From: Escherichia coli
Lineage (GTDB): Bacteria; Pseudomonadota; Gammaproteobacteria; Enterobacterales; Enterobacteriaceae
NCBI RefSeq assembly: GCF_001677475.2
Contig: NZ_CP015229.1
Direction: 5' to 3' (one strand)
DNA length: 64,000 nucleotides
Below, one piece after another: positions 19,925-36,141 of the stretch (the stretch's first letter is position 1; each line of letters opens with the position of its first letter). The position numbers and the translations under genes are program-made. The notes below the pieces were generated by a model. It saw nothing but the letters and a program-made list of their open reading frames with translations, had not been told where the DNA came from and made no database searches.

Positions 19925-21766
<1,842 letters not shown>

Positions 21767-21844
21767 TCGGTAGGCCGGATCAGGTGTTACGCCGCACCCG
21801 GCACTAGTCCCTCCGCACAAACGCTACCTTTTCGGTGGCGTTTT

Positions 21845-22351
21845 TTATCGCCCACGCACTACCAGCGCCTGGTCCAGCTCGCGATACGCTTCAACCAGTT
21901 TCTCCAGTGAAACGCGACTTAAACCGCTGGGATTTGGCAGCACCCAAATCTGCGTCGAACCAATGGTGAGCGTTTGTTTCCCCCACTGTGCACCGCGCTG
22001 GCTGAATCCCTGTTCATATGCTTGTTTGCCCAGAATCGCCAACGCCTGCGGCTGATAATCTTCAATTTTTTCAATCAGCTTACGCCCGCCTGCGTGTAGT
22101 TCTTGCTTTGAAACTTCATTGGCTTGCACCGTTGGACGGTCTACCAGTTTGGTGACGCCACAACGATAATCCAGCAGATGCTGTGCCTCCTGCGGCTTCA
22201 ACTGACGGTCGGTAAACCCGGCCTGATATATCACCTTCCAGAAGCGATTTGCCGGATGAGCAAAGGGAAAACCAGTCCCGGCGGATGAAAGCCCAGGGTT
22301 GATACCGCAAAACACGACCCGTAACCCTGGAGCCAAAATATCCTCAACCAT
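21845..22351 (-). CDS. mug: G/U mismatch-specific uracil DNA glycosylase
   Basis: 168-aa [23 protein letters not shown]... Confidence 0.9.
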
Positions 22352-22475
22352 ATTTACTCCTTTCTAACATCACCAGGAAAAGTATAACGAATTGAAAATA
22401 CATTGTTTATAAAAACAGCAGGCGCGCGGTAATGGCTGGATTGCGACACGGAGTTACTTTATAATCCGCTACCAT

Positions 22476-22551
22476 GGCCCCTTAGCTCAGTGGTTAGAGC
22501 AGGCGACTCATAATCGCTTGGTCGCTGGTTCAAGTCCAGCAGGGGCCACCA
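22476..22551 (+). tRNA. ileX: tRNA-Ile (anticodon CAU, lysidine-modified)
   Basis: 76-nt sequence ggccccttagctcagtggttagagcaggcgactCATaatcgc...gggccacca folds as a canonical cloverleaf with CAT anticodon and encoded CCA; its 3' 46 nt are repeated at 36093-36141. Confidence 0.92.
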
Positions 22552-22554
22552 GAT
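22506..22554 (+). repeat. attL core (3' part of ileX plus 3 nt)
   Basis: Exact 49-bp identity with 36093-36141, read directly from the sequence. Confidence 0.85.
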
Positions 22555-22593
22555 TTCAATGAATTACAGATGTATCCAAACTATCTTGCTTTA

Positions 22594-22627
22594 CCAGGAT
22601 ACTTATAGGATACCTCTGAGAAGTATT
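22594..22627 (+). promoter_or_regulatory. Arm-type repeat near attL (AGGATAC motifs; candidate integrase/accessory-factor binding site)
   Basis: ccaggatacttataggatacctctgagaagtatt closely matches 35964-35997 near attR (29 of 34 positions). Confidence 0.45.
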
Positions 22628-22765
22628 AACAAGTAAGAATTGGCTCATGCCTACAGAACAGTTGGGTCGTAGCAGCCGTTCACCTGCGAACAAGAAAGTG
22701 CTACGGGTCTGAACTTTTGCCCCCAACTCTCCAAGAGACCGGCAAAAACCCTGACGGAGGTATCA

Positions 22766-22909
22766 ATGGATACTTTAAGAAAGGGCTCAGACCTGCTGTC
22801 TGCACGTGTGATTGCCGTTACAGGTTTAATCGCAGCACTTGGCAATTTAGGTCTATGCCCAATAGCCGTAGTGCTAGTATGTATAGCTTTAGTTATCATG
22901 CTGAAGTAA
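22766..22909 (+). CDS. 47-aa small hydrophobic membrane peptide (MDTLRKGSDLLSARVIAVTGLIAALGNLGLCPIAVVLVCIALVIMLK)
   Basis: Strong SD (ggagg) 6 nt upstream of ATG; followed by hairpin gcccagctttcgctgggc; a single predicted TM helix. Too short to be in the ORF track. Confidence 0.5.
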   Translation: MDTLRKGSDLLSARVIAVTGLIAALGNLGLCPIAVVLVCIALVIMLK

Positions 22910-23356
22910 TGACAGCGTAACAAGCTCGGCCCAGCTTTCGCTGGGCCTCCCATTTCTACCTCCCAAAATCTATTAGAAACAATAAGCCACTAAAGAAAGA
23001 GCTTTTGCTGGCTACAATACTCACATACAAACAATTTTTATTTTTCGCGGGCGTAAAAAAACGATGGGGCTGGCAGTCCGGAAGACGTCAGGGTACAGAG
23101 ATTTGTACCCGCCTCTCCCTGTGCATGAGCACAATAAGTAACCGAAGGCGGAATTCCGCCCTCGGTACTCACATATGAGAAACGATATTTCTTCCACCGA
23201 TACCCTTTATTTGGGTATCGCGAGTAAGCCCCAAAATCTGGGTGTTACTCTTACTACCCAAACTACGGGTAGTTTCCGTAGTTTCATGGTCGAGTTGCAG
23301 ATCTGCAACTCACCCACCAGCCAACGCAATTTTGCGTTATCGGGAATATCAGCAAG

Positions 23357-23641
23357 TTACCGCCGCAGTCGTTCCGGCTTCTTCCACTGGTAAGTATTTT
23401 TCGCGCTCTCCCTCCGTTGTTGAGAACGGCGACGGTATGCCAGCAACTCAAGGACTCTGATCCGTATGTCGCGCATATCCACGCCGTTAAGCTCGATACC
23501 GTCACGGCGCATCATCTCTGCCACCACACGCGCGTAATTTTCGGCTATCACGCTGTCCGGCTGCGTGGCCTCCTATTTGCTTGATGGTTGTTTGATTCCG
23601 GTAACGCGGCGGATTAATCCCAGCAATTCAGATTCTGTCAT
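23357..23641 (-). pseudogene. Amber-interrupted ORF downstream of terS (remnant of a packaging-module gene)
   Basis: MTESELLGLIRRVTGIKQPSSK, then in-frame TAG, then the 64-aa ORF 23357..23551 in the same frame; start overlaps terS stop. Confidence 0.35.
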
Positions 23642-23652
23642 AGTGCGCTACG

Positions 23653-23973
23653 TTACTTGTCTTTATTCGGCTGCAACTTATCCGGCACATTTCCGGTAGT
23701 TTCCATCAGGTAATCAGCCAGTATCTGTGGGAGGTTGTCGGCAACTCTGGCACTGGCATTACAGGCTTTAACCACTTCCCTTTTAAGCCCATCCAGCATA
23801 GCGGGGGTAATGTGTGGGAAGCTCCTTTGCATAGTAAGCGGGAGGCTGTCCATGATTGATGAAATCTGACTCGCCAGTTTTGAAAGCGCGTACATGCAAA
23901 ACTCTGTATCAATCACGTCACCGCGATCGCGCTCGTTTTTAAGTTCCTGCGCCTCCGCCTGTGCTGTCAGTAA
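23653..23973 (-). pseudogene. Small terminase subunit (lambda Nu1-like), C-terminal fragment separated from its N-terminus by the IS insertion
   Basis: Translation ...AQAEAQELKNERDRGDVIDTEFCMYALSKLASQISSIMDSLPLTMQRSFP... parallels lambda Nu1 C-terminal region (...AQADAQELKNARD...ETAFCTFVLSRIAGEIASILDGLPLSVQRRFP...) from memory. Confidence 0.7.
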
Positions 23974-24085
23974 TCTGATCCTGACTCGTAAGTATGAGAC
24001 GACAATAACTCAGTCCGCCTGGCGCCGATTATTCTGGCCGGTTTTGTAACCTGAGTGTCATTTACATGATCCAACAGGAAATGGC

Positions 24086-25465
24086 GTGACGCTCAATACT
24101 TCTCAGGTCAGTTACTATATGACTCAGCGTAAGAAAGGTATAACTCAGCATATCTCGGCCATGAAGGCTGGTATCTCAGTCCGTTCTGGTCGTCGGATCG
24201 AAAAAGGAGAGTGGGCAAAAAACAGTGTTCGGCACTGGCGCACACGCAAAGATCCTCTGGAAGCTGTGTGGGACAGCATGCTTGTTCCTCTGTTGAAAGA
24301 GAGGCCGGCTCTGACACCAACAACTCTACTGGAGATGCTACAGGATAAATATCCCGGCCAGTACCCCAACAGCCTTCGAAGAACAATGCAACGGCGGGTT
24401 CGCGAATGGAAACTACAGTATGGTACAGAGCAGGAGGTCATGTTCCGCCAGCAACATCAGCCCGGCCTGCGAGGCCTGTCGGACTTTACTGAACTGAAAG
24501 GTGTAGTTGTCACCATCGCCGGTAAGTTGTTGGCGCATAAGTTGTATCACTTCCGTCTGGAATGGAGCCACTGGAGCTGGATGCGGGTTGTTCTGGGTGG
24601 TGAGAGCTTCTCTGCTCTGGCTGAAGGCCTGCAGGAAGCCCTCGGACAACTGGGCGGAGTGCCGGTAGAACATAAAACGGACAGCCTGAGGGCAGCATGG
24701 AAACAACAGGGCGAAGATGGACGCCGCGAGCTGACTGAGCGTTATGCTACTCTCTGTCAGCACTACGGAATGCAGGGCGTACACAATAATGCCGGTCGGG
24801 GCCACGAAAATGGCTCGGTTGAAAGTGCCCACGGACATCTGAAAAGGCGTATCTGTCAGGCGCTGATACTGCGGGGCAGTAACGACTTCAGCACCATAGA
24901 AGAATATCAGGCCTTCATCACTCAGCAGGTTATGCGGCACAACCGTAACAATCAGGATCTGGTCAAGGAAGAACGTCTTCATCTGAAACCGCTGCCGCTT
25001 CGTCGCAGTGCTGACTATGATGAGCTGACTGTGAGGGTTAGTCGCAGCAGTACCATCAATGTGAAGCACGTCGTCTACAGCGTACCTTCCCGGCTTGTAG
25101 GTCAACTGTTACGGGTCAGGTTATGGGACGATCGTCTGAGCTGTTACGTTGGCAGCAGCGAGGTCATGAGCTGCCCTCGCGTCAGACCAGAAAAAGGGAA
25201 GACGCGGGCCCGTCGTATCGACTTCCGACATGTGATCGACAGTCTGGCAAAAAAGCCCGGTGCGTTCTGCCATGCAACGCTGAGAAATGACATCCTGCCG
25301 GACGATGAATGGCGGAGGCTGTGGCGTCGCTTATGTAATCATCTGGAGCCCGATATGGCAGGAAGGCTGATGGTACATGCCGGGAAACGTGGATCTGCAC
25401 CGGCTGATGCGCTTCCTGGGTATAAAAGAAAAGGCGTTGCCGGTAGTCAATGTGATACAGCATAA
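24086..25465 (+). CDS. istA: IS21-family transposase IstA
   Basis: 459-aa ORF (GTG start) with N-terminal HTH and DDE-type catalytic region; sits immediately upstream of an IstB-like gene. Confidence 0.8.
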   Translation: MTLNTSQVSYYMTQRKKGITQHISAMKAGISVRSGRRIEKGEWAKNSVRHWRTRKDPLEAVWDSMLVPLLKERPALTPTTLLEMLQDKYPGQYPNSLRRTMQRRVREWKLQYGTEQEVMFRQQHQPGLRGLSDFTELKGVVVTIAGKLLAHKLYHFRLEWSHWSWMRVVLGGESFSALAEGLQEALGQLGGVPVEHKTDSLRAAWKQQGEDGRRELTERYATLCQHYGMQGVHNNAGRGHENGSVESAHGHLKRRICQALILRGSNDFSTIEEYQAFITQQVMRHNRNNQDLVKEERLHLKPLPLRRSADYDELTVRVSRSSTINVKHVVYSVPSRLVGQLLRVRLWDDRLSCYVGSSEVMSCPRVRPEKGKTRARRIDFRHVIDSLAKKPGAFCHATLRNDILPDDEWRRLWRRLCNHLEPDMAGRLMVHAGKRGSAPADALPGYKRKGVAGSQCDTA

Positions 25466-25510
25466 CCTGAGCAGTTATGAGCAACTACTGCGTGGCAAGG
25501 GAGGTTCGCA

Positions 25511-26266
25511 GTGAGCAATATCCATCACCTTGAACATAGCCTGCGTAAACTACGCCTGACACGAGTTGGAGCTGAATGGCACGCTCTGGAAAAACGAGCG
25601 CTGGCAGAAGGCTGGACACCATCGCGCTATCTTCTGACGCTATGCAATGAAGAACTCCTGTGGCGCGAGAGTGAAAAACTGCGTCGTTATAAAAAGGAGG
25701 CCCGGTTGCCAGTTGCCAAAACGCTGAGCGAATACGACTTCAGTCAGGTGCCGGAACTGAATGGAGCTCAGTTCCGGCAACTCTGTGAAACGACAGACTG
25801 GGTTGATGCAGGAGAAAACGTTCTGCTGTTCGGAGCCAGCGGGTTGGGGAAAAGCCATCTGGCGGCAGCGATCGTGGATGGCGTAGTAGGTCAGGGCTAC
25901 CGGGCCCGGTTCTACAGCGCAGGAGAGCTGTTGCAGGAACTACGTAAAGCCAGAGCTCAGTTGAAACTGAATGAGCTGCTACTGAAACTGGATCGCTACC
26001 GGGTGATAGTGGTGGATGATCTTGGCTATGTCAAACGCGATAGTGCCGAAACGGGTGTGCTGTTCGAGTTAATAGCGCATCGCTATGAACGTGGGAGCCT
26101 GGTGATAACCAGTAACCATCCGTTCAGCATGTGGGGCAGCATCTTCGTGGATGAGACTATGGCGGTGGCTGCGGCAGACAGGCTGATCCATCACGGATAT
26201 ATGTTCGAACTGAAAGGGGAAAGCTACAGGAAAAAGACAGCGAAGGCAGTAACAAGCGCGACTTGA
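25511..26266 (+). CDS. istB: IS21-family helper ATPase IstB
   Basis: 251-aa ORF with Walker A (GASGLGKSHLA) and Walker B (VIVVDDLGY) motifs; RBS gggagg upstream of GTG start. Confidence 0.85.
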   Translation: MSNIHHLEHSLRKLRLTRVGAEWHALEKRALAEGWTPSRYLLTLCNEELLWRESEKLRRYKKEARLPVAKTLSEYDFSQVPELNGAQFRQLCETTDWVDAGENVLLFGASGLGKSHLAAAIVDGVVGQGYRARFYSAGELLQELRKARAQLKLNELLLKLDRYRVIVVDDLGYVKRDSAETGVLFELIAHRYERGSLVITSNHPFSMWGSIFVDETMAVAAADRLIHHGYMFELKGESYRKKTAKAVTSAT

Positions 26267-26325
26267 TGTCGCCCTGAAGGGTGCGGCCAGTATAGTTGGC
26301 GCGAGTCGGCAAAACTAGTTGACGT

Positions 26326-26526
26326 CTAATATCGTAAGAGTTCATCATCATCAATCTCGCCTTTGTCGTTTGTAAGCTGGCTAATTGCATTGTTAACCCT
26401 ATTGTCTATCACGCTGGCAACATCATAAAACGCCTCACGGCCTTTACGTTCAACGGGAGTCACTCCCCACTTGTCGAATGCTGTAGCACTTACCCGGCAG
26501 CTTTGCGCCATGGTTTTTTTGTTCAT
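26326..26526 (-). pseudogene. Small terminase subunit (lambda Nu1-like), N-terminal fragment truncated at the IS boundary
   Basis: MNKKTMAQSCRVSATAFDKWGVTPVERKGREAFYDVASVIDN... parallels lambda Nu1 N-terminus (MEVNKKQLADIFGASIRTIQNWQEQGMPV...); ORF ends exactly at the IS junction. Confidence 0.7.
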
Positions 26527-26639
26527 CAGGTGCGATTTCATCAATATCCCAACTTGGTCAAGGTTTCAGGTTGGTGTGTTGGTGTTATCTTTCCCTTTTT
26601 ATTCATGGAGATAGAGCAAACAACAAAACCACCACCACC

Positions 26640-26745
26640 CCCCTGAAAAAGCTCATAAATAGCGAAAAACCGCGAGGTCGCCGCCCCGTAACGGGTCCAT
26701 ATGCCGGAAAGGACCCGTAAAAAAAGCCGGATTTCTCCGGCCTTG
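26640..26745 (-). other. Lambda-type cos site (cosN with flanking terminase-binding region)
   Basis: Minus strand reads ACGGGTCCTTTCCGG...CGTTACG-GGGCGGCGACCT-CGCGGTTTTTCGCTATTTATGA, nearly identical to the phage lambda cohesive-end region as I recall it (GGGCGGCGACCTCGCGGGTTTTCGCTATTTATGAAAA); lies ~150 nt upstream of the Nu1-like start. Confidence 0.75.
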
Positions 26746-26747
26746 TC

Positions 26748-27161
26748 TCAGATGGTTTTCAGTATGCGATCGATGTCGCCATCATCGCCCGGGTTTCTGC
26801 CAGCGTATGCCATACCAGCTGATACGGCTTTCGGGCTGTGCATGTCCATAAAGTTTTCAAAGGCTGCGGTAAGCTCTGGTGCAACCTTCTGGCGTTCCTG
26901 CTCTATGGTCATGCTAAGGATGCTTTTAGCCGTACCAACATCGATACAAGGCACGTTTGCCATTGCACGTAACAGCGGCTGATAGTCGCCAGATTCATCA
27001 AGCGCCATAATCGCATCAGAGCGCGGCTTGTCCTTCTCTTCCAGGCTGTTAAGTTGATATACGGCCTCGTAGGTTGATAAACCTCTGTCAGCCATTGCCC
27101 GCGCTTCGGCCTTAAATTTACTCGCCAGCGGTAGCGTCATGATGCTTTCATTCGTTGCCAT
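26748..27161 (-). CDS. Hypothetical protein (137 aa) between decoration-like gene and cos
   Basis: ORF with no motif I recognise; co-oriented with capsid genes. Confidence 0.55.
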   Translation of the reverse strand: MATNESIMTLPLASKFKAEARAMADRGLSTYEAVYQLNSLEEKDKPRSDAIMALDESGDYQPLLRAMANVPCIDVGTAKSILSMTIEQERQKVAPELTAAFENFMDMHSPKAVSAGMAYAGRNPGDDGDIDRILKTI

Positions 27162-27173
27162 CGTTCCCTCTGC

Positions 27174-27509
27174 TTATCGGGCCAGTGGCTGAACGGATAC
27201 GCCAGAACCCGCAAAGGCGGCGCATTTTTTCGCATCGGTGTCGACGCTCTCAGGCCAGTTAACGGCGGCGATATTAAATATCCCCGTCTTATAGCACTGT
27301 GCTGATTTCTGCGTCGACGTGTCAACGGGGTACGAGGTCAGATAAACAGCCTTGCCAGATTCCTGACCATCCCACGGCTTAAACTCGCCATTTTCCGCCA
27401 GCATCAGCGGGGTAAATTCCTGAATAACTCCAGCATCAGCGGCAAAATGTACCAGCGTCGTGGATACCTGCTGACTGCCTGCAAATAACTCAATGTATGG
27501 AGTGTTCAT
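27174..27509 (-). CDS. Head decoration protein (lambda gpD-like)
   Basis: 111-aa ORF, size and position next to an E-like capsid gene match lambda D (110 aa); assignment by context and size, weak sequence recall. Confidence 0.6.
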   Translation of the reverse strand: MNTPYIELFAGSQQVSTTLVHFAADAGVIQEFTPLMLAENGEFKPWDGQESGKAVYLTSYPVDTSTQKSAQCYKTGIFNIAAVNWPESVDTDAKKCAAFAGSGVSVQPLAR

Positions 27510-27520
27510 AGAATCCCCCG

Positions 27521-28576
27521 TTAAGCAATTTTGACGGTAACAAATTTGCGAATATCTGCCGGTACCGGCTGCGGTGCGCTGTGCGTCTGCACGTACTCAA
27601 TCGCCGGATCGCCATCCTCAATCCAGTTTTTCGGGTAGTACATGTTTTGCGTTGCGCCAGTTCTTACCGCTTCCGGATCCATAATCGCACCATAGGCCAC
27701 CAGCCCTTTATTGTTAGTGTTGCCCAGGACAAGCAAATCAGGCTCAAGGAAATATTTTTCGGTGCCATCGCTGTCGGTGTATTTGCCGGAATAGACGATA
27801 AGGGCCAGATCACCCAGATAGCCTTTAAAGCTCACCACTTCGCCCAGGTTTTTACAGGCCAGCTCTGCGGCGGATTCTGAACCACGGGAAAGATCGTACA
27901 GTTCACGGAATTTTTTAAAGCTGCGTAACGTGCGCCATACCTCAGCGCCCATAATCATGACGTTGGCGGGGCAACCAGCCTGATCGGTGTATAGTTCGAT
28001 GTCATAGATTGGATCGTGTGTTTCCTTATCTGCCTCAGACCACTTTTTGCCCGATCCCTGCGTAATGATGTTTTTAGTCGGGATTTTCCAGTCGATTTCG
28101 TATCTATTTATTCCTTCGCCCTCAATGATGTTTTTTCCGGTCGTGACCGCATTCACCGCCAGCCATTCTATGCGAGCTTTAATAGCGTTTACCTGGCGGC
28201 GCATGTTGCCAGTAATCAGGCGCATACGGCGATAAGTTGGATCGTTAAGCTGTGCCGGATCTTCTCCAGCCATGCGCATGATGGTTTTTGATGGATCGAT
28301 TTCGTGTTTTGGTTTCATATAGCCAGGGCGGATAGTGCTTGTTTCGTACCCTTTATCGCGCTGAACCTGACTCCCCACCATAGGCGAACAAAAAGCCGAC
28401 ATGGTGACTTCTTCAATATCCAGGGTATCTAACATGATGTCCTGCGTGTTGAAGGTTGCCACGTTCGGGAAAAACAGCGACGTAAACAGCGGACTGAATT
28501 TAAATTCCGAAATATCCCCACGATTCAGGTACGCGAAAAGCTGGTTAGTGTTAAGTGCCGTTGCTTTGCCTGTCAT
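27521..28576 (-). CDS. Major capsid protein (lambda gpE-like)
   Basis: 351-aa ORF aligning along its length with lambda E from memory: FKFSPLFTSLFF / FKFDPLFLRLFF, PGYMKPKHEIDP / PGYVKPKHEVNP, YSGKY...LVLGNTNN...YPKNW / YSGQY...MVLGNTQA...YPKNW. Confidence 0.8.
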   Translation of the reverse strand: MTGKATALNTNQLFAYLNRGDISEFKFSPLFTSLFFPNVATFNTQDIMLDTLDIEEVTMSAFCSPMVGSQVQRDKGYETSTIRPGYMKPKHEIDPSKTIMRMAGEDPAQLNDPTYRRMRLITGNMRRQVNAIKARIEWLAVNAVTTGKNIIEGEGINRYEIDWKIPTKNIITQGSGKKWSEADKETHDPIYDIELYTDQAGCPANVMIMGAEVWRTLRSFKKFRELYDLSRGSESAAELACKNLGEVVSFKGYLGDLALIVYSGKYTDSDGTEKYFLEPDLLVLGNTNNKGLVAYGAIMDPEAVRTGATQNMYYPKNWIEDGDPAIEYVQTHSAPQPVPADIRKFVTVKIA

Positions 28577-28815
28577 TATTCACCCCCATGAGTCTGATTC
28601 ATGCCCAGCGCCGCGCGTAAATAGGCGCGTACCTGCCAGCCTGTTGACGGCTCAACCATCGCCAGCGGCTCAAGTCCTGCCGCAATGCCTGCTTTTACGT
28701 TCTGCTGGTGGCGTTCCTTGAGCGCCTCCACGATGTCTGGGCTTATGTAAACTGTCACCCCGCCTTTTTTCTCTTCTGCCATAGTCGGAAATTCCTCTTT
28801 GACGTTAAAAATCAC
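28576..28815 (-). CDS. Hypothetical small protein translationally coupled to the capsid gene
   Basis: 79-aa ORF (possibly starting at internal MAEEKK); stop shares one base with the capsid ATG. Confidence 0.5.
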   Translation of the reverse strand: MIFNVKEEFPTMAEEKKGGVTVYISPDIVEALKERHQQNVKAGIAAGLEPLAMVEPSTGWQVRAYLRAALGMNQTHGGE

Positions 28816-28846
28816 AACTGGATGTTCATCCAGTTGTGATTATAAT
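28811..28846. promoter_or_regulatory. Perfect 14-bp inverted repeat plus TATAAT box upstream of the capsid operon
   Basis: atcacaactggatg-tt-catccagttgtgat immediately followed by tataat; read directly. Confidence 0.45.
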
Positions 28847-28951
28847 CATGATTTCATTTTACGCAATAATGTTGAGTTGTGTTGCAAATTGTGAAATGAT
28901 TTCCGGCAACAGTAGTCACCATACTGTTAGATAAAAGCCTCATATGCAAAA

Positions 28952-29028
28952 GCCCGATAAGACCCTCTGACCTTATCGGGCTTTTTTTGGGGCATAAAAA
29001 AGCCGGACTTCTCCGGCTTCTGTTACTC
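28952..29028. terminator. Pair of intrinsic terminator hairpins between the SSB gene and the capsid operon
   Basis: gcccgataag...cttatcgggc followed by T-run; and gccggacttctccggc flanked by A-run / T-run (functional on minus strand). Confidence 0.55.
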
Positions 29029-29033
29029 GTTGC

Positions 29034-29456
29034 TTAAAACGGTATGTTATCCCCGTACGGATCATCGTTACCCGCCTGTTGTTTTGCCCTGTTCAGTGCG
29101 TCAGTAGCCTGCCCTTGCTGGCCTTTTTTGCCGCCCGGTCGCGCCGTTCTCGCACTGATTACGCTGTCTGCGATAACCTGCCAGCCCTGCCGCGTTTCGC
29201 CGTTCTGGCCTGTCCACTGGCTTACCTGCATGTTACCCGCCACGCTCACCAGTTCGCCTTTGTGGTGTTTTGCCAGTGCGTCGGCCTGTCTGCCAAACGC
29301 CAGGACGGATAACCACATCGTCGCCGTTCCGTCATCTGCCTGGCTGCACGGAAGGGGGACCGCCATACTAGCCATCGTCATTTGTGTACCCTTGCTGGTG
29401 GTCTTTAACTGCGGGTCAGCCACCAGCCGCCCGTAAGCCGCTATCTGTGCTGTCAT
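29034..29456 (-). CDS. Single-stranded DNA-binding protein (island-encoded SSB)
   Basis: 140-aa ORF; Gly/Gln-rich linker and acidic C-terminal tip ...DDPYGDNIPF resembling the SSB C-terminal DDDIPF motif. Confidence 0.75.
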   Translation of the reverse strand: MTAQIAAYGRLVADPQLKTTSKGTQMTMASMAVPLPCSQADDGTATMWLSVLAFGRQADALAKHHKGELVSVAGNMQVSQWTGQNGETRQGWQVIADSVISARTARPGGKKGQQGQATDALNRAKQQAGNDDPYGDNIPF

Positions 29457-29698
29457 GCTGTCTGCTCTCCGGTTTTAACGTTGATGGTTGTCACCTGTTC
29501 CGCTTCGGCAATCTCCCGTTCTGTCAGCGTGGCAAAGTTTGCAGCTGCCGTTGTCATGAATGCGCTAATCAGTTCGGGATGTGCTTTCGCATATCCTTCC
29601 CCGGCGTTGCGGTCGATGATTTTTATCGACACCCTTAACCAGTGTTCCGTCAAATCAAGGGCGTGCGATTGTGATTTTTTTGTGTGCTTCGCTGTCAT
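29453..29698 (-). CDS. Hypothetical protein (81 aa), coupled to ssb by ATGA overlap
   Basis: ORF directly downstream of the iteron array; no recognised domain. Confidence 0.5.
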   Translation of the reverse strand: MTAKHTKKSQSHALDLTEHWLRVSIKIIDRNAGEGYAKAHPELISAFMTTAAANFATLTEREIAEAEQVTTINVKTGEQTA

Positions 29699-29742
29699 AG
29701 GCTTTATCTCACAGCAGTAAATTAAAATTTTTGCGTTTTAAC

Positions 29743-29971
29743 CCTTCACCTGTTCACCTTTTGATATTTTCCATTTAAATTCATACTGTTAAGGGGTGAA
29801 CAGTTTCACAAAAACTATTCACCAACTGTTCACCACTGTTCACCCTTGAAGCTCAATAAACAACCAAAAAGGTGAACAGTGAATAGTTTGGTGAATAGTT
29901 CATAAATAACTGTTCACCCTATAATATACTGATATAAAAGATATTTATGACAGGGTGAACAGTGGTGAACA
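29743..29971. repeat. Iteron array (P4 ori/crr-type TGTTCACC octamers)
   Basis: Perfect TGTTCACC at 29751, 29827, 29837, 29911 and its complement GGTGAACA at 29795, 29871, 29954, 29964, plus degenerate copies (tattcacc, ggtgaata), within ~230 bp immediately 3' of the primase gene. Confidence 0.8.
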
Positions 29972-29985
29972 GTTATTCCATAAGT

Positions 29986-31803
29986 TTAATTTTTGCTATC
30001 GTCATTAGTGACTGATACACATGATGGCATCCAGTCTTCTGATTCCTCCGTCAGTGTCACGTTTGAACGTAAACCGTGCTTCGTTTTCCGTTTTATATAC
30101 TCCCTGCCATATTCCGCCATTGCCCCAGGCATATCTTTACCGAAGCGCGTCAGTGTTACAGGTTTACCAAACCCATGAGCCCTCATATAAGCCAGATAGG
30201 CATGATAGAGATACCTGCGCGGGCTGAATGGCACAATTTCAGCATTACCCACTAACAGGCCATCACACATTACCGACGCCATGAGATAGCCGCAGAAGTC
30301 CACCAGCGAATCCCCCTCTCGCTTTATCGCCAGTGCTTCTTCAGATTTCTGCTGCTCATATAACAGGCGTCTGGCTTCGTCCTGGTCAGCAAACCTTGTA
30401 AGCAGATGGCGAATCACTACCGCCAGCTCACCTTCTATTTTTTCCGCCAGCATCGGATCGCGTTCGTTCTCCGGTACAACTTCCGAAAAATTGAATATCA
30501 CCCGACGACGTGAGATCCCCCCGCTGCGGTCACTGAATGACATGGCGTTATTGTTAACCGCCAGCACTACTGCCGGAATACGCGTTGAGTAGGGGGCTTT
30601 GTGTTTCGGGTCAATTGCCACCTTGTCACCGCCTGTAATGGCCTTAATTCCTGCCCCATCACCAGCGTAGCGGGTCATATCCGGCATGATAATCAGCGAA
30701 AAGCCAACCACTAACGCGCGTTCCCTTGCATCTTCCAGCGCCTTCATGCTTGCCGATACTGTGTTGGCCTTACCCGCCAGCATGGTGCAAATCTCCGCCA
30801 TCACGCTTTTACCACTTCCCCCTGGACCTGTTACCTCAATGAATAACTGCCAGTCGTACCGGTTCGCCAGCACCATGAATAATGCAGCCAGTACGCGATC
30901 CGCCTTGCGGTCATTCTCAGCCACCGAACGGCGTAACCACTTCCAGAAATTCGGCGCATGTGTTGCCAGCGTTTCCCCCTCTGCTGGTGGGCTGAAAGGT
31001 AATTCACTGGCAATTAACAACCAGTCGTTTTTGTTATGCTCCCGAAAATTACCTGTTCTGGTATCAAATACCCCGTTACTGAATCCAATCAGGTTACGGG
31101 CTGTATTCCCCATTACAGGCAAACTTAACTTCATGGTATCGACCGCCGATTTAATGGCGTTCTGCGAATAGCTGATCTCCGCATCAATGAAAATCTGCGC
31201 CATAGCACGCTGTAACTCTTTATCCTGAACCGGCTCCCATACAACGCCGTTGTAATGGTGAACAGTGTCAGAGTCAGCATGAATCGCCAGTTCACCGCCA
31301 TAATGTGCCAGGAGAACTTCGCCGCGTTGACTTGCTCCCATCTGGTTAAGCGCCAGTGATGAAGCGTTATCGTCTTTTACCCGCTCTTTTTTCTTTACAG
31401 GCAGTTCAACTACCTTTTTCTTTTCCGCCAGCTCTGCCCGTTCACGTTCCAGATATTCGCGCCAGTTCTCCCGTTTCTGGCTGTGCATTCCTTCAGGATA
31501 ATAATCAGCATCCCTGACACCTGCCGCTGCCAGTTTCTGCCCGATGGTATTAACAAGCCCCGGACGCAATAACCCCGCCTGGTAGAGACGCACACGATAG
31601 CGTCCGTCCGGTACGATTTGCAGGTTGTCCAGTTCGGCAAGTTGTTGCTCTCCAAGCCAGACAGGAGGCACGTTATCGCCAGCCAGTCGCCCGTCCTGTT
31701 CCTGCCACTGCTTCGCATGTGCCCACGCATCACTACCCGCAAAAATGATGACTTCCGTCATTTTGTCACGTGGCTGGTGTTTTAAATTTGGCGCTTTTTT
31801 CAT
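29986..31803 (-). CDS. Satellite replication protein (P4 alpha-like primase-helicase, D5-type NTPase)
   Basis: 605-aa ORF (likely start MKKAP with ATGA overlap to upstream gene); Walker A GPGGSGKS; adjacent to TGTTCACC iterons. Confidence 0.75.
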   Translation of the reverse strand: MKKAPNLKHQPRDKMTEVIIFAGSDAWAHAKQWQEQDGRLAGDNVPPVWLGEQQLAELDNLQIVPDGRYRVRLYQAGLLRPGLVNTIGQKLAAAGVRDADYYPEGMHSQKRENWREYLERERAELAEKKKVVELPVKKKERVKDDNASSLALNQMGASQRGEVLLAHYGGELAIHADSDTVHHYNGVVWEPVQDKELQRAMAQIFIDAEISYSQNAIKSAVDTMKLSLPVMGNTARNLIGFSNGVFDTRTGNFREHNKNDWLLIASELPFSPPAEGETLATHAPNFWKWLRRSVAENDRKADRVLAALFMVLANRYDWQLFIEVTGPGGSGKSVMAEICTMLAGKANTVSASMKALEDARERALVVGFSLIIMPDMTRYAGDGAGIKAITGGDKVAIDPKHKAPYSTRIPAVVLAVNNNAMSFSDRSGGISRRRVIFNFSEVVPENERDPMLAEKIEGELAVVIRHLLTRFADQDEARRLLYEQQKSEEALAIKREGDSLVDFCGYLMASVMCDGLLVGNAEIVPFSPRRYLYHAYLAYMRAHGFGKPVTLTRFGKDMPGAMAEYGREYIKRKTKHGLRSNVTLTEESEDWMPSCVSVTNDDSKN

Positions 31804-32099
31804 TTCTGCTCTCTCCACGCGGCAATCATGTTTTTCAGTTCCTGTAGTTTTTTATCAACATCCATACATGACACATGGTTATTTCTGGAAGGCGGGATTT
31901 CCCGCCGGAATCTGCAAATAAAGATCTCCACGTTCAGCGAGCTATGAAATGAATAGCCATCACGAATAAAATACACACGGTCAAACATTATCGATTTTAC
32001 TGTTACTCTGTTGCCGTTCTTATCCCGATAAATAGCGCCGGGGATAATTTTGGGATGTGCATAACCGCTGGCAGTCAAGCCAGATAAATACGTTCTCAT
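31800..32099 (-). CDS. Hypothetical protein (99 aa)
   Basis: ORF translationally coupled to the primase gene; no recognised domain. Confidence 0.5.
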   Translation of the reverse strand: MRTYLSGLTASGYAHPKIIPGAIYRDKNGNRVTVKSIMFDRVYFIRDGYSFHSSLNVEIFICRFRREIPPSRNNHVSCMDVDKKLQELKNMIAAWREQK

Positions 32100-33786: not shown

Positions 33787-34507
33787 GGGGGTGAACAAGT
33801 TCAAACGAAGAATATTTATCAGGTCTTGGTGGTTGTGCTCCTGATTCTTTAATCCATTTATCCAGAGTGTTTTTACTTACTTTCCCATGATAGTAAACAG
33901 AAAGCTCGTTCAATAAACCTGTTTTACTGGCTTTAGGGTACTTTTCCCATGTTAGTTTAATTACGTGCATAACTTCATTGTAATAATGATTTCTTGGTTT
34001 GCGCGCTTTTTCTTTCTGTGATAAGGATAAAGCATCTTTTATTTTTTTATCTTTTTCATGGTTCGATATAATTTCTTCAAAAAAGTCATTAAGCAATAAC
34101 TCAACACCAACCCTAGTAAGTTTGTCTGCGTGATTACGCATTCCGACATGGTACAATGCAACTGCTGAATTTAAAGTATCGACAACCTGACAAGATAGTT
34201 TACTATCAAATATTAAAAAACCACATGAATCCATTCTTATAGCTAATTCAATAGGATATTGCTCGATTTCTCTTAATTCTAAACCATAACACAAAAGAAA
34301 TTCTCTTGTTGGATACTTTGATTTATAAAAATAATCTCTTATATCATCAATCAAGCGTTTTATAGCCTCTATGGTGGAGTTTTTCGGGGATAAAGATACA
34401 GGAACGTTTAAAACTGAAGAGTCTCGCCCACCAGTAATTAAATCATTCATAACCGAATAAATAATATATTGTTTGACCGATATATTGTTATCACCCATAT
34501 ATGTCAT
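33782..34507 (-). CDS. AT-rich orphan protein (241 aa) in the integrase-proximal cargo position
   Basis: Long ORF with visibly lower GC than the rest of the island; overlaps the int stop; no motif I can recognise. Confidence 0.6.
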   Translation of the reverse strand: MTYMGDNNISVKQYIIYSVMNDLITGGRDSSVLNVPVSLSPKNSTIEAIKRLIDDIRDYFYKSKYPTREFLLCYGLELREIEQYPIELAIRMDSCGFLIFDSKLSCQVVDTLNSAVALYHVGMRNHADKLTRVGVELLLNDFFEEIISNHEKDKKIKDALSLSQKEKARKPRNHYYNEVMHVIKLTWEKYPKASKTGLLNELSVYYHGKVSKNTLDKWIKESGAQPPRPDKYSSFELVHPQ

Positions 34508-35912
34508 TCTTTTCTTGTACTATAGCAAATAGTAAACGACGTTTTTCATCATCACTCATGCCCTCCAGTGCGGAAAGTAATTGCGCATCGATAGATTTTT
34601 TACTCTCCACCAGCCCGGCATGTTCCAGAATTGCCCGTTCTATCCGTGATGCTGGCTCCAGCAGTTCATCAGCACCGAAATGTAAATACCCCTGCGTTAC
34701 GTCGGCACTTCGCATAGTGCGGTGATTCATCAGGCGCTTGAGGATGTAATTACCCACGCCCACCAGCTCAGCAACCGTTCCGAACGTCCGGCGTGCGTCG
34801 TGCCACTTAAACGGGACAGGGAAGAGCATTTCATCGTTCGCCTCAGGAATGGTAGCCGCGCTTATCCGGTCTATGATGTGCCGTGTCTCCTGAATCACTC
34901 CCTTCACGCCAGGAAACACCAGCACATCATCAGCAGCTTTGTTTTTTAGCCTGCGAAGAAACATTTTCCGCAACGTATCAGTGATCGGCAGTTCAAGCGG
35001 ATCCCCGTTTTTCGTGGTGTCTATCCAGAAAAAGCGACCGCCCATATTCACGCGATCCCACGTAAGGCCAAAAACTTCTGATTTCCTCAGTCCGGTAAAC
35101 AGTGCCATTTCCACGGCATCACATACCGTAACAGCTATATCATCCCTTTCCTGTTCGCCCTGGTCGCGCACAGCAGCTACAGCAGCAAACCAGCGGGGAA
35201 AATCATGCAGGCGGATACGTTCCGTTTTTCTTACCGTTCCGTGCCACTGGCGCTTGGTGCTCAGTACCAGAGTCGGCGGATCCGGTAAAAGAGTATTACC
35301 CGCATCATCACGGTAATGATCATGCGCAAACCGACACACAGCACGTAGCGCACGCGCCCATAAATCGGCCTGTGCCTTGCTTCCTGTACCAACCCCAGCC
35401 CGTAACGTGGTTTTATCAGCACCGAACCATACAGCCCCATCAGTGATGGCCTTATGCCGTTGTTCCACCCGTTCGCGGGAAATACTGGCGAGGGTATGGG
35501 CCATCCAGTCACCGGAATAATTCTGTAATATGCTGCGGTACTGTTTTTCTGTGGAGGGTTTCAGGCGGTGGCCACGATTTTTTACGTAGGCGTCAATCGC
35601 CTCACTCAGCGTTATCATGGCCTTGTTGTTAGTGCGCTTTGCTATGTTCGGATTTATCCCCGTTGTGGCGACTTCGCCAAGGAGTTCCATAGCTTTAGCC
35701 CTGGCATTATCCACGCTCAGATCAGGAAAACGCCCCAGCGTTGCACGAATAAATTTTCCGTTACGCTTACGGGAAATGCAGAAACTTTTCACACCAGACG
35801 AACCTACACGGACACGCAGCCCGTTAACCTCCGTATCACCATATTCGACCTGTCCATGTTCCGGCGTTGGCAGTTCTGCAATTTTTACTTTAGAGAATCT
35901 GAATAATTTCAC
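34491..35912 (-). CDS. int: Tyrosine site-specific integrase
   Basis: 473-aa ORF from a GTG start; catalytic signature region (LRKSE..., WHDARRTFGT, ...QGYLHF) with an N-terminal arm-binding-like domain. Confidence 0.85.
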   Translation of the reverse strand: MKLFRFSKVKIAELPTPEHGQVEYGDTEVNGLRVRVGSSGVKSFCISRKRNGKFIRATLGRFPDLSVDNARAKAMELLGEVATTGINPNIAKRTNNKAMITLSEAIDAYVKNRGHRLKPSTEKQYRSILQNYSGDWMAHTLASISRERVEQRHKAITDGAVWFGADKTTLRAGVGTGSKAQADLWARALRAVCRFAHDHYRDDAGNTLLPDPPTLVLSTKRQWHGTVRKTERIRLHDFPRWFAAVAAVRDQGEQERDDIAVTVCDAVEMALFTGLRKSEVFGLTWDRVNMGGRFFWIDTTKNGDPLELPITDTLRKMFLRRLKNKAADDVLVFPGVKGVIQETRHIIDRISAATIPEANDEMLFPVPFKWHDARRTFGTVAELVGVGNYILKRLMNHRTMRSADVTQGYLHFGADELLEPASRIERAILEHAGLVESKKSIDAQLLSALEGMSDDEKRRLLFAIVQEKNDIYG

Positions 35913-35935: not shown

Positions 35936-35997
35936 GGTATCCTGGAAAATCGCTTGTTCTGCTCCAGGATACCTATAGGATACCGTAAAGAAGTATT
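35936..35997 (+). promoter_or_regulatory. Arm-type repeats near attR, directly upstream of the integrase start
   Basis: ggtatcctgg / ccaggatacc inverted pair plus tandem GGATACC copies and the block shared with 22594-22627. Confidence 0.45.
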
Positions 35998-36092: not shown

Positions 36093-36141
36093 ACTCATAA
36101 TCGCTTGGTCGCTGGTTCAAGTCCAGCAGGGGCCACCAGAT
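36093..36141 (+). repeat. attR core (displaced partial copy of tRNA-Ile 3' end)
   Basis: 49-bp exact copy of 22506-22554; upstream sequence is not tRNA-like, so this is not a functional tRNA. Confidence 0.85.

What the first reader, a model, noticed from the sequence alone, without database searches (positions are those of the whole stretch)
22920..23641. Palindrome-rich, apparently non-coding left arm with an amber-interrupted ORF
Downstream of terS the expected next gene is replaced by a 95-codon frame containing an in-frame TAG, followed by ~430 bp without credible ORFs but with several perfect palindromes (ggcggaattccgcc, aaactacgg...ccgtagttt, ttgcagatctgcaa). This is either decayed packaging genes or a structured RNA or regulatory region.
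Basis: seen in the sequence. Interest (0 to 1): 0.4.

Follow-up and report, generated by a model that had tools for sequence, protein, structure and literature searches.

The report
Phage-satellite end carrying a cos site
The interval is the tail end of a known type of phage-parasitising island (an EcCICFT073-family PICI): its last small gene is knocked out here by a stop codon, and the hairpin-rich DNA that follows ends in a packaging (cos) site copied from SfV/ST64B-type phages.

Summary
A 94-codon frame (23357-23641, minus strand) carries an in-frame TAG, and the ~320 bp after it have no credible ORF and fold far better than shuffled sequence (z about -8).

The window holds a 13.6-kb EcCICFT073-family PICI (a phage-inducible chromosomal island, i.e. 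a phage satellite) inserted at the ileX tRNA. Such islands have no terL after terS. The frame is the conserved last gene of their packaging operon (PHROG 1561, function unknown), and is intact in hundreds of relatives. Here a single CAG>TAG change breaks it.

The downstream DNA is non-coding in every relative and is modular:
- a 48-nt unit, made of an IHF-consensus-like site plus a hairpin whose arms covary;
- a palindromic core shared with capsid-forming PICIs (cf-PICIs);
- a terminator-like hairpin;
- an 87-bp block (23033-23119) homologous to the HNH-terS intergenic cos site of phages SfV, SfII, SfI and ST64B. It includes their mapped 10-nt cohesive end (TGCCCGCCCC; island TGCCAGCCCC).

The island also has an exact lambda cosN upstream of its own Nu1-type terS, which an IS21-family element has split.

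Most likely function: a second packaging entry for SfV-type helper phages, unproven. The hairpin modules remain unexplained. This is a new variant of a known kind, of moderate interest.

The parts
23357..23641 (-). Last gene of the PICI packaging operon ('orf94', PHROG 1561, function unknown). Pseudogene in this copy.
   Evidence: Translation. Intact 94-aa homologues in L001 and L002. PHROG 1561 at 8.8e-49, no Pfam or NCBIfam match. 907 homologous clusters, all named 'hypothetical'.
23573..23575 (-). Amber codon 23 (TAG). Homologues have CAG (Gln). Plus strand reads cctcctAtttg here and cctcctGtttg in relatives.
   Evidence: Alignment; translations.
23357..23551 (-). Internal GTG-initiated 64-codon frame covering the conserved C-terminal core. 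It begins where the natural ~62-aa short family members begin. Re-initiation is possible but unproven, because the AGGAGG lies 17 nt upstream.
   Evidence: ORF list; family alignment.
23314..23361 (-). One copy of a 48-nt PICI-specific unit: GGTAAC-N4-TGATATTCCCGA plus a hairpin. It starts at the orf94 stop codon.
   Evidence: Covariance-model hit of 50.9 bits, E 1.9e-9. Units occur only downstream of orf94-family genes, always in operon orientation, in 1 to ~8 copies per island, and are absent from phages and from the rest of the window.
23347..23359 (+). IHF-core-consensus-like 13-mer TATCAGCAAGTTA (12 of 13 matches to WATCAANNNNTTR). It overlaps the orf94 stop codon.
   Evidence: 13 of 24 distinct units from related islands match the consensus perfectly, while the NNNN positions vary. 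The consensus itself is from established knowledge. Binding was not tested.
23323..23338 (.). Unit hairpin AACGCA-aaat-TGCGTT (written on the minus strand).
   Evidence: Across 24 units all 6 pairs show changes on both sides, and 0 of 500 shuffles reach the observed covariation. At least 8 different stems were seen.
23194..23318 (.). Palindromic core module: a 20-bp perfect palindrome (23292-23311), four ACTAC/GTAGT repeats at 9-bp spacing (23253-23284), and the hairpin GATACCC-N7-GGGTATC (23199-23219).
   Evidence: Shared at 92-95% identity with cf-PICI (L008), the ClpP-capsid-fusion island (L007), L009 and 70 IMG/VR contigs, but absent from EcCICFT073 itself. No promoter-like site.
23131..23166 (-). 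Intrinsic-terminator-like site: 11-bp stem ACCGAGGGCGG-AATT-CCGCCTTCGGT followed by the tail TACTTATTGT. Probable 3' end of the terS-orf94 transcript.
   Evidence: The only terminator-like site found in 22400-24100. The U-tract is weak.
23033..23119 (-). cos block homologous to the HNH-terS intergenic cos site of SfV, SfII, SfI, SfIV, ST64B, vB_EcoM-720R4 and 118970_sal3.
   Evidence: blastn 84-90% identity, E down to 3e-22. The match abuts or spans the ends of linear phage records. In the phages it lies between the HNH and terS genes. Alignment.
23066..23075 (-). Predicted 10-nt cohesive-end sequence TGCCAGCCCC (plus strand GGGGCTGGCA).
   Evidence: The SfI cohesive end was mapped experimentally as 5'-TGCCCGCCCC-3' (PMC3636060). 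Of 24 island cos copies across 23 loci, 15 read TGCCAGCCCC, 7 TGCCCGCCCC and 2 TGCCCGCTCC.
22555..23032 (.). Integrase-type-specific end segment (P' side of attP), not shared by islands at other loci. It contains a 47-aa hydrophobic ORF (22766-22909, plus strand, GGAGG Shine-Dalgarno), the hairpin GGCCCAGC-tttc-GCTGGGCC (22928-22947) and an arm-type repeat (22594-22627).
   Evidence: Alignment breakpoint at ~23033. Repeat D2 pairs 22594-22627 with 35964-35997. The ORF is recorded only as 'hypothetical'.
22506..22554 (+). attL: a 49-bp direct repeat covering the 3' part of tRNA-Ile2 (ileX, CAT anticodon). Its partner attR is at 36093-36141.
   Evidence: RefSeq names this tRNA tRNA-Ile in L002.
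23653..23992 (-). C-terminal part of the island's Nu1-family terS. The N-terminal part is at 26332-26544.
   Evidence: Pfam Phage_Nu1 at 1e-24 for the intact L001 homologue. 35% identity over the full length to a lambda-like prophage TerS, E 8e-29, and no similarity to RppA.
23993..26331 (+). IS21-family element (istA 24086-25465, istB 25511-26266) inserted in terS, with a 7-bp target duplication TCGTAAG (23986-23992 and 26332-26338).
   Evidence: compared with the intact terS in L077.
26675..26686 (-). Exact lambda cosN 12-mer GGGCGGCGACCT with lambda-like flanking sequence, ~130 bp upstream of terS. This is the island's first cos.
   Evidence: EcCICFT073 has the same arrangement upstream of rppA.

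Best explanation
The interval is the distal end of an EcCICFT073-family phage-inducible chromosomal island (PICI) integrated at ileX.

Reading the minus strand, it contains in order:
1. the last gene of the packaging operon (orf94), inactivated here by a CAG>TAG mutation;
2. a conserved non-coding tail: one 48-nt unit (IHF-like site plus hairpin), a palindromic core, and a terminator-like hairpin that probably ends the operon transcript;
3. an 87-bp cos site taken from SfV/ST64B-type phages, whose HK97-like packaging uses TerS, TerL and an HNH endonuclease.

Proposed mechanism (inferred, not shown). After induction the island excises at its 49-bp att repeats and replicates from its P4-like ori into concatemers. 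It can then be cut and packaged by either of two unrelated helper terminases:
- lambda-type helpers act at the lambda-type cos upstream of the island's own Nu1-type terS;
- SfV-type helpers act at this terminal cos, cutting at TGCCAGCCCC and packaging leftwards across att towards int.

In this copy terS is split by an IS21-family element and orf94 carries an amber codon. The lambda-type route is therefore probably crippled. The SfV-type cos needs no island-encoded terminase and is intact.
For: **The element is an EcCICFT073-family PICI**
- 49-bp att repeats and an integrase.
- D5-type primase, SSB, a lambda E-like capsid protein and a D-like decoration protein.
- A 137-aa protein 95% identical to its CFT073 counterpart, with the same gene order as CFT073.
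- RppA in CFT073 was confirmed by its match to the RppC structure 6HLK.

**orf94 is a conserved gene, damaged here**
- It is intact in related islands.

**The 87-bp block is a cos site**
- It matches only the HNH-terS intergenic region of the phages. Homology starts just after the HNH gene and stops just before the terS ribosome-binding site.
- It contains the cohesive end mapped experimentally for SfI (PMC3636060).
- It sits at the same place in islands that use at least three different integration modules, so it belongs to the island and is not a neighbouring prophage remnant.
- cos plus palindromes together are found in 348 of 5426 complete E. coli genomes.

**Precedent**
- EcCICFT073 carries two functional cos sites and is packaged by helper terminase (PMC6092414 and PMC6739421).

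**Second cos**
- An exact lambda cosN upstream of a genuine Nu1-family TerS.
- Both cos motifs occur together in 7 of 76 related loci.
Against: - No cleavage or transfer data exist for this cos in any island.
- The island lacks HNH, TerL and an SfV-type TerS, so everything would depend on a helper phage that is not in the window.
- This copy differs from the phage consensus in the cohesive-end 10-mer (C>A, as in 15 of 24 island copies sampled) and in the upstream GGGGCGGG arm (GAGGCGGG).
- Where the SfV-type terminase binds (its cosB equivalent) is unknown, so the 87 bp may not be sufficient.
- Extra matches in island-bearing genomes (22 of 60) show no clear enrichment of SfV-type prophages.
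- 237 bp of conserved hairpins (23120-23356) are not explained by the cos assignment. They also occur in islands without this cos (L007, L008, L009).
Confidence: 0.7

Rival explanations
1. The hairpin-rich stretch 23125-23356 acts mainly as RNA. It would be a structured 3' UTR of the terS-orf94 transcript that ends at the 23141-23166 terminator, stabilises the mRNA, or is processed into a 3'-UTR-derived small RNA. This could coexist with the cos function.
For: - It lies directly downstream of the orf94 stop and upstream of the only terminator-like site, on the same strand.
- The minus strand folds 12 kcal/mol better than the plus strand, with z -8.1.
- The unit hairpin keeps its pairing through changes on both sides of all 6 pairs.
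- Several stems contain internal G-T pairs that would be G-U only on the minus strand, for example GGCCCA/TGGGTT and AGCGCA/TGCGTT.
Against: - No Rfam match at E <= 1.
- The G-U versus A-C asymmetry rests on about 3 independent events against 1 counter-example.
- The core palindromes are almost invariant in sequence, so they say nothing about structure.
- The long 33-nt hairpin in the minimum-energy fold is broken by natural variants in L007 and L009.
- Perfect zero-spacer palindromes and an IHF-type consensus point to double-stranded DNA recognition.
- No expression data are available.
Confidence: 0.3
2. The modules are DNA-level protein-binding architecture. IHF sites and palindromic operators would bend and organise the island end, as cosB-I1 does in lambda or as in a centromere-like array. 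They would serve packaging or regulation by an island-encoded protein, possibly orf94 with its basic tail.
For: - 13 of 24 units match WATCAANNNNTTR perfectly, with variable N positions (chance is ~1 in 65,000 per position).
- Units form tandem 48-bp arrays of up to ~8 copies.
- There is a 20-bp perfect palindrome and four ACTAC repeats at 9-bp spacing.
- The module is always linked to the orf94-family gene, apart from one natural deletion in L026.
Against: - The unit stems vary in sequence, which does not fit a single sequence-specific binder.
- The modules occur with three different terminase systems (Nu1-type, P27-type plus HNH, and Rpp), so they cannot be a terminase-specific cosB.
- The core is absent from EcCICFT073, which transfers well (PMC6092414).
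- The orf94 model has no recognisable DNA-binding fold.
Confidence: 0.3
3. The interval is decayed packaging genes, i.e. remnants of terL or other head genes.
For: - terS is disrupted by an IS element and orf94 carries a nonsense codon, so this copy is decaying.
Against: - No ORF in 22654-23505 matches Pfam or PHROGs at E <= 0.1.
- Intact relatives have the same non-coding stretch at 94-100% identity and no terL.
- The stretch is more conserved than the neighbouring coding sequence.
Confidence: 0.03
4. The cos-like block is an inert scar from past recombination with an SfV-type prophage and is not used for packaging.
For: - No functional data exist.
- This copy has two substitutions in the inverted repeat around the cut site.
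- Satellite ends are recombination and cargo hotspots (citing 10.1101/2025.02.11.637232).
Against: - The block is trimmed exactly to the intergenic cos, with no flanking phage gene fragments.
- It is kept in hundreds of genomes and with several integrase modules.
- The positions invariant among the phages are largely invariant in the islands too.
Confidence: 0.2

Closest known systems
EcCICFT073, the prototype E. coli cos-type PICI (Fillol-Salom 2018 PMC6092414; 2019 PMC6739421)
   Same: - Same gene order: capsid E-like, decoration D-like, a 137-aa protein (95% identical), then a lambda-type cos, then a packaging-specificity gene, then the orf93/94 gene, then a non-coding tail containing the 48-nt units.
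- Both carry two cos sites.
- Both depend on a helper terminase.
   Different: - The window island has a full Nu1-family TerS where EcCICFT073 has RppA.
- Its second cos is SfV/HNH-type and lies at the island end. In EcCICFT073 the second cos is another lambda cosN, inverted, between rppA and orf93.
- It has the palindromic core that EcCICFT073 lacks.
- It uses a different integrase and att site (ileX rather than the site next to phoQ).
cos sites of SfV/SfI/SfII/ST64B-type phages (HK97-like TerS-TerL-HNH packaging)
   Same: - 87 bp at 84-90% identity, covering both sides of the mapped 10-nt cohesive end.
   Different: - The island has no HNH, terS or terL of that type next to it.
- There is one substitution in the cohesive end.
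- The flanks are island-specific.
SaPIbov5 and related cos SaPIs (Quiles-Puchalt 2014, as cited in 10.1101/2022.09.08.507074); also the P4 satellite cos
   Same: - A satellite carries the helper's cos and is packaged by the helper's HNH-dependent terminase.
- SaPIbov4 is also reported to have two putative cos sites.
   Different: - Different host phylum and unrelated sequences.
- Here the two cos sites belong to two unrelated terminase systems.
Capsid-forming PICIs (cf-PICI, e.g. EcCIEDL933; 10.1101/2022.09.08.507074)
   Same: - They share the orf93/94 gene as the last gene after terL, the 48-nt units and the palindromic core (L008).
   Different: - cf-PICIs encode a full HK97-type head module with their own HNH, TerS and TerL.
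- The window island encodes only capsid, decoration and TerS homologues.
- The sequence after the core differs (type C rather than the SfV-type cos).
Lambda cosB with its IHF site I1; the F-plasmid sopC tandem 43-bp inverted-repeat array (from established knowledge)
   Same: - IHF-consensus sites near a cos.
- Tandem units of ~45 bp, each with an inverted repeat.
   Different: - The stems differ between units.
- The array is more than 230 bp from the cos and occurs in islands without that cos.
- No partition or terminase partner has been identified.

Membership tests
PICI (EcCICFT073 family) | Integrase at one end and flanking att direct repeats at a specific site | tested here: met
   49-bp repeats at 22506-22554 and 36093-36141. 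Integrase at 34491-35912 with Arm-DNA-bind_3 and Phage_integrase domains.
PICI (EcCICFT073 family) | Own replication module (primase/helicase plus ori) and a phage-satellite size of about 10-15 kb | tested here: met
   D5_N/Pox_D5 primase at 29986-31818 and SSB. GGTGAACA iterons. Size is 13.6 kb, including the 2.3-kb IS element.
PICI (EcCICFT073 family) | Lacks the lysis, tail, portal and terL genes of a complete phage | tested here: met
   ORF list and family scans of the island and RefSeq annotation of relatives show none.
PICI (EcCICFT073 family) | Synteny and sequence similarity with EcCICFT073 itself | tested here: met
   The 137-aa protein is 95% identical. Capsid, decoration, lambda cos, orf93 and the 48-nt units come in the same order.
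PICI (EcCICFT073 family) | Induction, excision and high-frequency transfer by a helper phage | not testable with these tools
   Requires experiments.
Rpp-type packaging redirection | Presence of an rpp gene (RppA/B/C homologue) | tested here: not met
   No window protein matches RppC 6HLK, whereas the CFT073 144-aa protein does at 5e-31. The island TerS shows no similarity to RppA.
SfV/ST64B-type cos site | Sequence homology across the mapped cleavage site, including the 10-nt cohesive end | tested here: met
   87 bp at 84-90% identity. 9 of 10 cohesive-end positions match in the window and 10 of 10 in L001.
SfV/ST64B-type cos site | Staggered cleavage by TerS-TerL-HNH and packaging from the site | not testable with these tools
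   Needs sequencing of virion DNA ends or a cos-plasmid transduction assay.
Lambda-type cos site | cosN 12-mer GGGCGGCGACCT with cosQ-like flank, upstream of a Nu1-family terS | tested here: met
   Exact 12-mer at 26675-26686 with lambda-like flanks (the lambda sequence is recalled from knowledge). TerS hits Pfam Phage_Nu1 at 1e-24. It lies outside the finding's coordinates.
Known structured RNA family (Rfam 15) | Covariance-model match | tested here: not met
   No match in 22552-23700 at E <= 1.
Intrinsic (Rho-independent) terminator | GC-rich stem-loop followed by a U-tract | tested here: inconclusive
   An 11-bp stem with 8 GC pairs at 23166-23141 passes the scan, but the tail TACTTATTGT is weak. 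One site was found against 1.5 expected in shuffles.
IHF binding site | Core consensus WATCAANNNNTTR | tested here: inconclusive
   The window copy matches 12 of 13 positions. 13 of 24 related units match perfectly. Binding was not tested.
Lambda N / nut-type antitermination (considered for orf94 plus the hairpins) | Arginine-rich motif homologous to N, and boxA-boxB RNA elements | tested here: not met
   BLASTP of orf94 against lambda N (sequence recalled from memory) gives no alignment. No boxA-like sequence is present. Only a loose resemblance remains: A-rich loops and an RRR..RR..QWK tail.

The most novel reading that the evidence does not exclude
The 48-nt unit (IHF-like site plus a covarying hairpin, in 1 to ~8 tandem copies) and the invariant palindromic core form a previously undescribed cis-acting cassette. 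It is shared by EcCICFT073-type PICIs and capsid-forming PICIs and is always coupled to the orf93/94 gene. The orf94 protein, with its conserved basic YQWKKPERLRR tail, may be its nucleic-acid-binding partner. The cassette could mark satellite DNA or RNA for packaging, readthrough or protection independently of which terminase is used. Together with two cos sites of unrelated types, this would let one satellite exploit both lambda-like and SfV/HK97-like helpers.
Probability: 0.15. Interest if true: 0.65.

Novelty: new variant of a known kind. Interest (0 to 1): 0.45.

Why it matters
PICIs move virulence, resistance and defence genes between enterobacteria, and their host range depends on which helper phages can package them.

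An EcCICFT073-type island that carries both a lambda-type cos with its own Nu1-type TerS and an SfV/ST64B-type, HNH-dependent cos would have two unrelated helper families available. SfV-type cos sequences are common: matches to the cos block alone make up the bulk of the hits spread over 2294 of 5426 complete E. coli genomes. Such an island would also stay mobilisable after losing its own terS, as has happened in this copy.

The conserved hairpin cassette shared with capsid-forming PICIs is an unannotated element present in hundreds of genomes. It is cheap to test by deletion in the existing EcCIEDL933 and EcCICFT073 systems.

For genome annotation, the practical lesson is that this 'odd' interval is an ordinary satellite end, not decayed phage genes.

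Tried and rejected
- **Rfam.** A scan of 20000-30000 at E <= 1 found nothing in the interval.
- **ORFs in the non-coding part.** Six were tested against Pfam and PHROGs with no hit, which rejects 'decayed genes'.
- **orf94 function.** No Pfam or NCBIfam family. PHROG 1561 is of unknown function. PDB sequence search found only a chance hit at E 0.36. The AlphaFold model has three helices plus a basic tail, at pLDDT 75, and Foldseek against the PDB found nothing below E 1.8. The family is narrow, with 52 clusters at 50% identity.
- **orf94 as a lambda N-like arginine-rich-motif protein.** BLASTP gave no alignment, so the idea is kept only as a loose resemblance.
- **Is the island TerS or the 137-aa protein an Rpp?** No. 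CFT073's 144-aa protein is.
- **Wider species sampling.** A peptide-pattern scan and a DNA-pattern scan of the species-representative genomes both found nothing. Diversity therefore came from IMG/VR and E. coli genomes.
- **Strand and RNA test by G-U versus A-C asymmetry in the unit stems.** Too few independent events.
- **The long 33-nt inverted repeat and the long-range closing helix of the minimum-energy fold.** Natural variants do not support them.
- **Promoter scan of 22400-24100.** No sigma-70-like site, so there is no evidence for an independent sRNA gene or an antisense promoter.
- **Co-occurrence of cos-bearing islands with SfV-type prophages.** 22 of 60 island genomes have extra matches, against ~42% of all genomes with any match. 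This is uninformative.
- **The cf-PICI papers.** 'Hypothetical gene 1792', whose loss severely reduces transfer, could be the orf93 homologue, but the text does not say which gene it is.
Full report
**Context**

The window is E. coli chromosome. dnaG, rpoD and mug are followed by a tRNA with a CAT anticodon at 22476-22551, which RefSeq names tRNA-Ile (ileX) in a syntenic genome. A 49-bp direct repeat of the tRNA 3' part (22506-22554 and 36093-36141) brackets a 13.6-kb insert. Read on the minus strand, the insert contains:
- an integrase (34491-35912) and an Icd-like region;
- a D5-type primase (29986-31818) and SSB;
- a lambda E-like major capsid protein (27521-28576) and a D-like decoration protein (27174-27509);
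- a 137-aa protein;
- a Nu1-family small terminase, split in two;
- the finding's frame.

CFT073 carries the same series: capsid, decoration, a 137-aa protein 95% identical to the window's, an exact lambda cosN, a packaging-specificity gene, a 93-aa gene and a non-coding tail. In the literature these CFT073 genes are c1499 and c1500 of EcCICFT073, the prototype E. coli PICI (PMC6092414). The window therefore holds an EcCICFT073-family phage satellite, and the finding covers its distal end.

**The observation**

The minus-strand frame 23641->23357 is 94 codons plus the stop, with TAG at codon 23. They are part of a much denser set of inverted repeats. The stretch 23125-23360 folds to -101.6 kcal/mol on the minus strand and -89.8 kcal/mol on the plus strand, with z-scores of -8.1 and -7.6. 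No shuffle out of 200 does as well on either strand.

**The ORF**

In islands at ileX (strain KC-Dl-1) and between clpS and cspD (strain 51489), the same frame is an intact 94-aa gene with CAG where the window has TAG.
- It matches PHROG 1561 (unknown function) at 8.8e-49. It has no Pfam, NCBIfam or PDB relative.
- It has 907 close clusters, all labelled 'hypothetical', but only 52 clusters at 50% identity. The family is narrow.
- It is always the last gene of the packaging operon: after terS in this island type, after rppA and an inverted cos in EcCICFT073, after terL in a capsid-forming PICI, and after a ClpP-capsid fusion gene in another type.
- The conserved part is the C-terminal two-thirds, ending in ...YQWKKPERLRR. 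Natural short forms of ~62 aa start where the window's internal GTG frame (23551) starts, so residual function of the amber allele cannot be excluded.
- An AlphaFold model (pLDDT 75) shows three helices and a disordered basic tail, and Foldseek finds nothing.

So nothing 'expected' has been replaced. This is a point-mutated copy of the normal gene.

**The non-coding part is modular**

A three-way alignment shows near-identity from ~23033 to 23356 between islands that use different integrases. Everything from 22555 to 23032 is specific to the ileX type. Spread sampling of E. coli genomes, five annotated relatives and 70 IMG/VR contigs resolve four modules on the minus strand.

*Module (a): the 48-nt unit.* Starting at the orf94 stop codon, the unit reads GGTAAC-N4-TGATATTCCCGA followed by a 5-7-bp hairpin with an A-rich loop.
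- A covariance model built from 24 distinct units finds them only in this position and orientation. There is 1 copy in the window, 3 in EcCICFT073 and up to about 8 elsewhere, often exactly 48 nt apart. It finds none in the phages searched or in the rest of the 64-kb window.
- The stems differ (CGCA/TGCG, GCCCA/TGGGT, CCTCA/TGAGG, GTGCA/TGCAC, CAGCC/GGCTG, CCCCC/GGGGG and others). All six pairs show changes on both sides, and 0 of 500 shuffles reach the observed covariation.
- On the plus strand, the conserved leader reads as the IHF core consensus WATCAANNNNTTR. The match is perfect in 13 of 24 units, with the N positions varying. The window copy has one mismatch.

*Module (b): the palindromic core (23194-23318).* It comprises the 20-bp perfect palindrome, four ACTAC/GTAGT repeats at 9-bp spacing, and GATACCC-N7-GGGTATC.
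- It is 92-95% identical between island types whose neighbouring orf94-family proteins are only 62-76% identical.
- It is missing from EcCICFT073.

*Module (c): a terminator-like hairpin (23166-23141 plus tail).* This is the only such site in 22400-24100.

*Module (d): a type-specific distal piece.* In the window this is the cos block.

**The cos block**

Window 23033-23119 matches, at 84-90% identity (E down to 3e-22), the extreme ends of the linear records of SfV, SfIV, SfII and SfI, and internal sites of ST64B, 118970_sal3, vB_EcoM-720R4 and SKA5.
- In every phage examined, the matched sequence is the intergenic region between the HNH endonuclease gene and terS.
- Joining the right and left ends of SfV reproduces the island sequence across the junction.
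- The alignment shows that homology starts just after the HNH gene and stops just before the terS ribosome-binding site.
- The SfI paper mapped the cohesive end experimentally as 5'-TGCCCGCCCC-3' (PMC3636060). The window has TGCCAGCCCC at 23066-23075. Of 24 island cos copies across 23 loci, 15 carry TGCCAGCCCC, 7 carry the phage sequence and 2 carry TGCCCGCTCC.
- The block sits at the same junction in islands whose sequence beyond it follows at least three different courses. It is therefore part of the island and not an adjacent prophage remnant.
- cos plus palindromes together occur in 348 of 5426 complete E. coli genomes.

**A second cos**

An exact lambda cosN (GGGCGGCGACCT), with flanks that resemble lambda as I recall the lambda sequence, lies at 26675-26686, about 130 bp upstream of terS. 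EcCICFT073 has the same arrangement upstream of rppA, plus a second inverted lambda cosN. This agrees with its two published functional cos sites. The window's TerS is a true full-length Nu1 homologue: 35% identical to a lambda-like prophage TerS at E 8e-29. It is unrelated to RppA. Both cos types occur together in 7 of 76 related loci.

**State of this copy**

An IS21-family element (23993-26331, with a 7-bp duplication TCGTAAG) splits terS, and orf94 carries the amber codon. The island is decaying, but the terminal cos is intact.

**Mechanism**

*Shown:*
- the interval is the end of an EcCICFT073-family PICI;
- the ORF is a nonsense allele of a conserved gene;
- the 87-bp block is homologous to a mapped phage cos;
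- the hairpin modules are conserved and satellite-specific.

*Inferred:*
- SfV/ST64B-type helpers cut island concatemers at this cos and package them, in parallel with lambda-type helpers acting at the other cos through the island's own TerS. The precedent is EcCICFT073, and SaPIbov5 for HNH-dependent cos phages.

*Not explained:*
- the 48-nt unit and the palindromic core. Two readings remain open: a structured 3' UTR, or DNA-level IHF and operator architecture. The G-U asymmetry is too thin to decide. The hairpin covariation fits both readings. No Rfam family matches and no promoter was found.
- An N/nut-like idea, based on the basic QWK tail and the A-rich-loop hairpins, got no statistical support.

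**Verdict**

This is a real, non-random feature, and most of it is an ordinary satellite end. What is new relative to published EcCICFT073 work is:
- the combination of a PICI-encoded Nu1-type TerS with lambda-type and SfV-type cos sites in one island;
- an undescribed hairpin cassette shared with capsid-forming PICIs.

It is a new variant of a known kind, of moderate interest.

Noticed in passing
window 23993-26331: An IS21-family element (istA 24086-25465, istB 25511-26266) is inserted in the island's terS. It has a 7-bp target duplication TCGTAAG and terminal inverted repeats TATGAGACGACAA and TATTAGACGTCAA.
   Followed up: yes
window 26545-26747 and terS at 26332-26544 plus 23653-23992: An exact lambda cosN lies upstream of a PICI-encoded full-length Nu1-family TerS, at the position where EcCICFT073 has rppA. 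This would be a cos-type counterpart of the SaPI-encoded TerS strategy. I did not find it described in the papers read.
   Followed up: partly
window 22766-22909 (+), hairpin 22928-22947: A 47-aa very hydrophobic ORF (MDTLRKGSDLLSARVIAVTGLIAALGNLGLCPIAVVLVCIALVIMLK) has a GGAGG Shine-Dalgarno sequence and a strong downstream hairpin. It lies between the cos and attL, where satellites often carry cargo. It has no family match and is recorded only as 'hypothetical'. It could be a small membrane toxin or effector.
   Followed up: partly
window 22594-22627 and 35964-35997: A 34-nt repeat at 85% identity containing GGATAC motifs flanks the att core on both sides. These are probably arm-type integrase binding sites of attP.
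   Followed up: no
window 29793-29808, 29868-29881, 29951-29964, 31254-31270: GGTGAACA(GT) iterons flank and lie within the primase gene. This is the reverse complement of the P4 type I iteron TGTTCACC (recalled from knowledge), so they are the likely island ori.
   Followed up: no
L007 7743-9242; L009 7203-9320: Related PICIs sit directly against truncated prophage morphogenesis genes: a terminase gpA fragment in strain 155 and a major capsid fragment in AF206. This suggests insertion into resident lambda-like prophages. The AF206 island also carries an Abi-family gene and a TIR-domain gene.
   Followed up: no
L011 4576-5241; L027 and L065 (two core copies about 434 bp apart); L058: Some islands have the palindromic core duplicated. 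Between the two copies lies a block with three TTGCGGGTTA iterons and three inverted copies around an AT-rich centre. It looks like an origin or a protein-binding array.
   Followed up: no
L054 5069-5430; L014 864-1324; L008 9186-9377: The 48-nt unit (IHF-like site plus hairpin) forms head-to-tail arrays of up to about 8 copies in some islands. Each unit repeats the last bases of the orf94 reading frame (..CGGTAAC).
   Followed up: partly
L080 3298 (minus strand), CFT073: The second lambda cosN of EcCICFT073 lies inverted between rppA and the orf93 gene. This fixes where the published cos1 and cos2 lie relative to the genes.
   Followed up: partly
window 26720-26741 and 28996-29017: A nearly identical GC hairpin with an A/T run (AAAAAAGCCGGATTTCTCCGGC) occurs twice, once after the 137-aa gene and once after the SSB gene. 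These are probable bidirectional terminators that punctuate the island operons.
   Followed up: no
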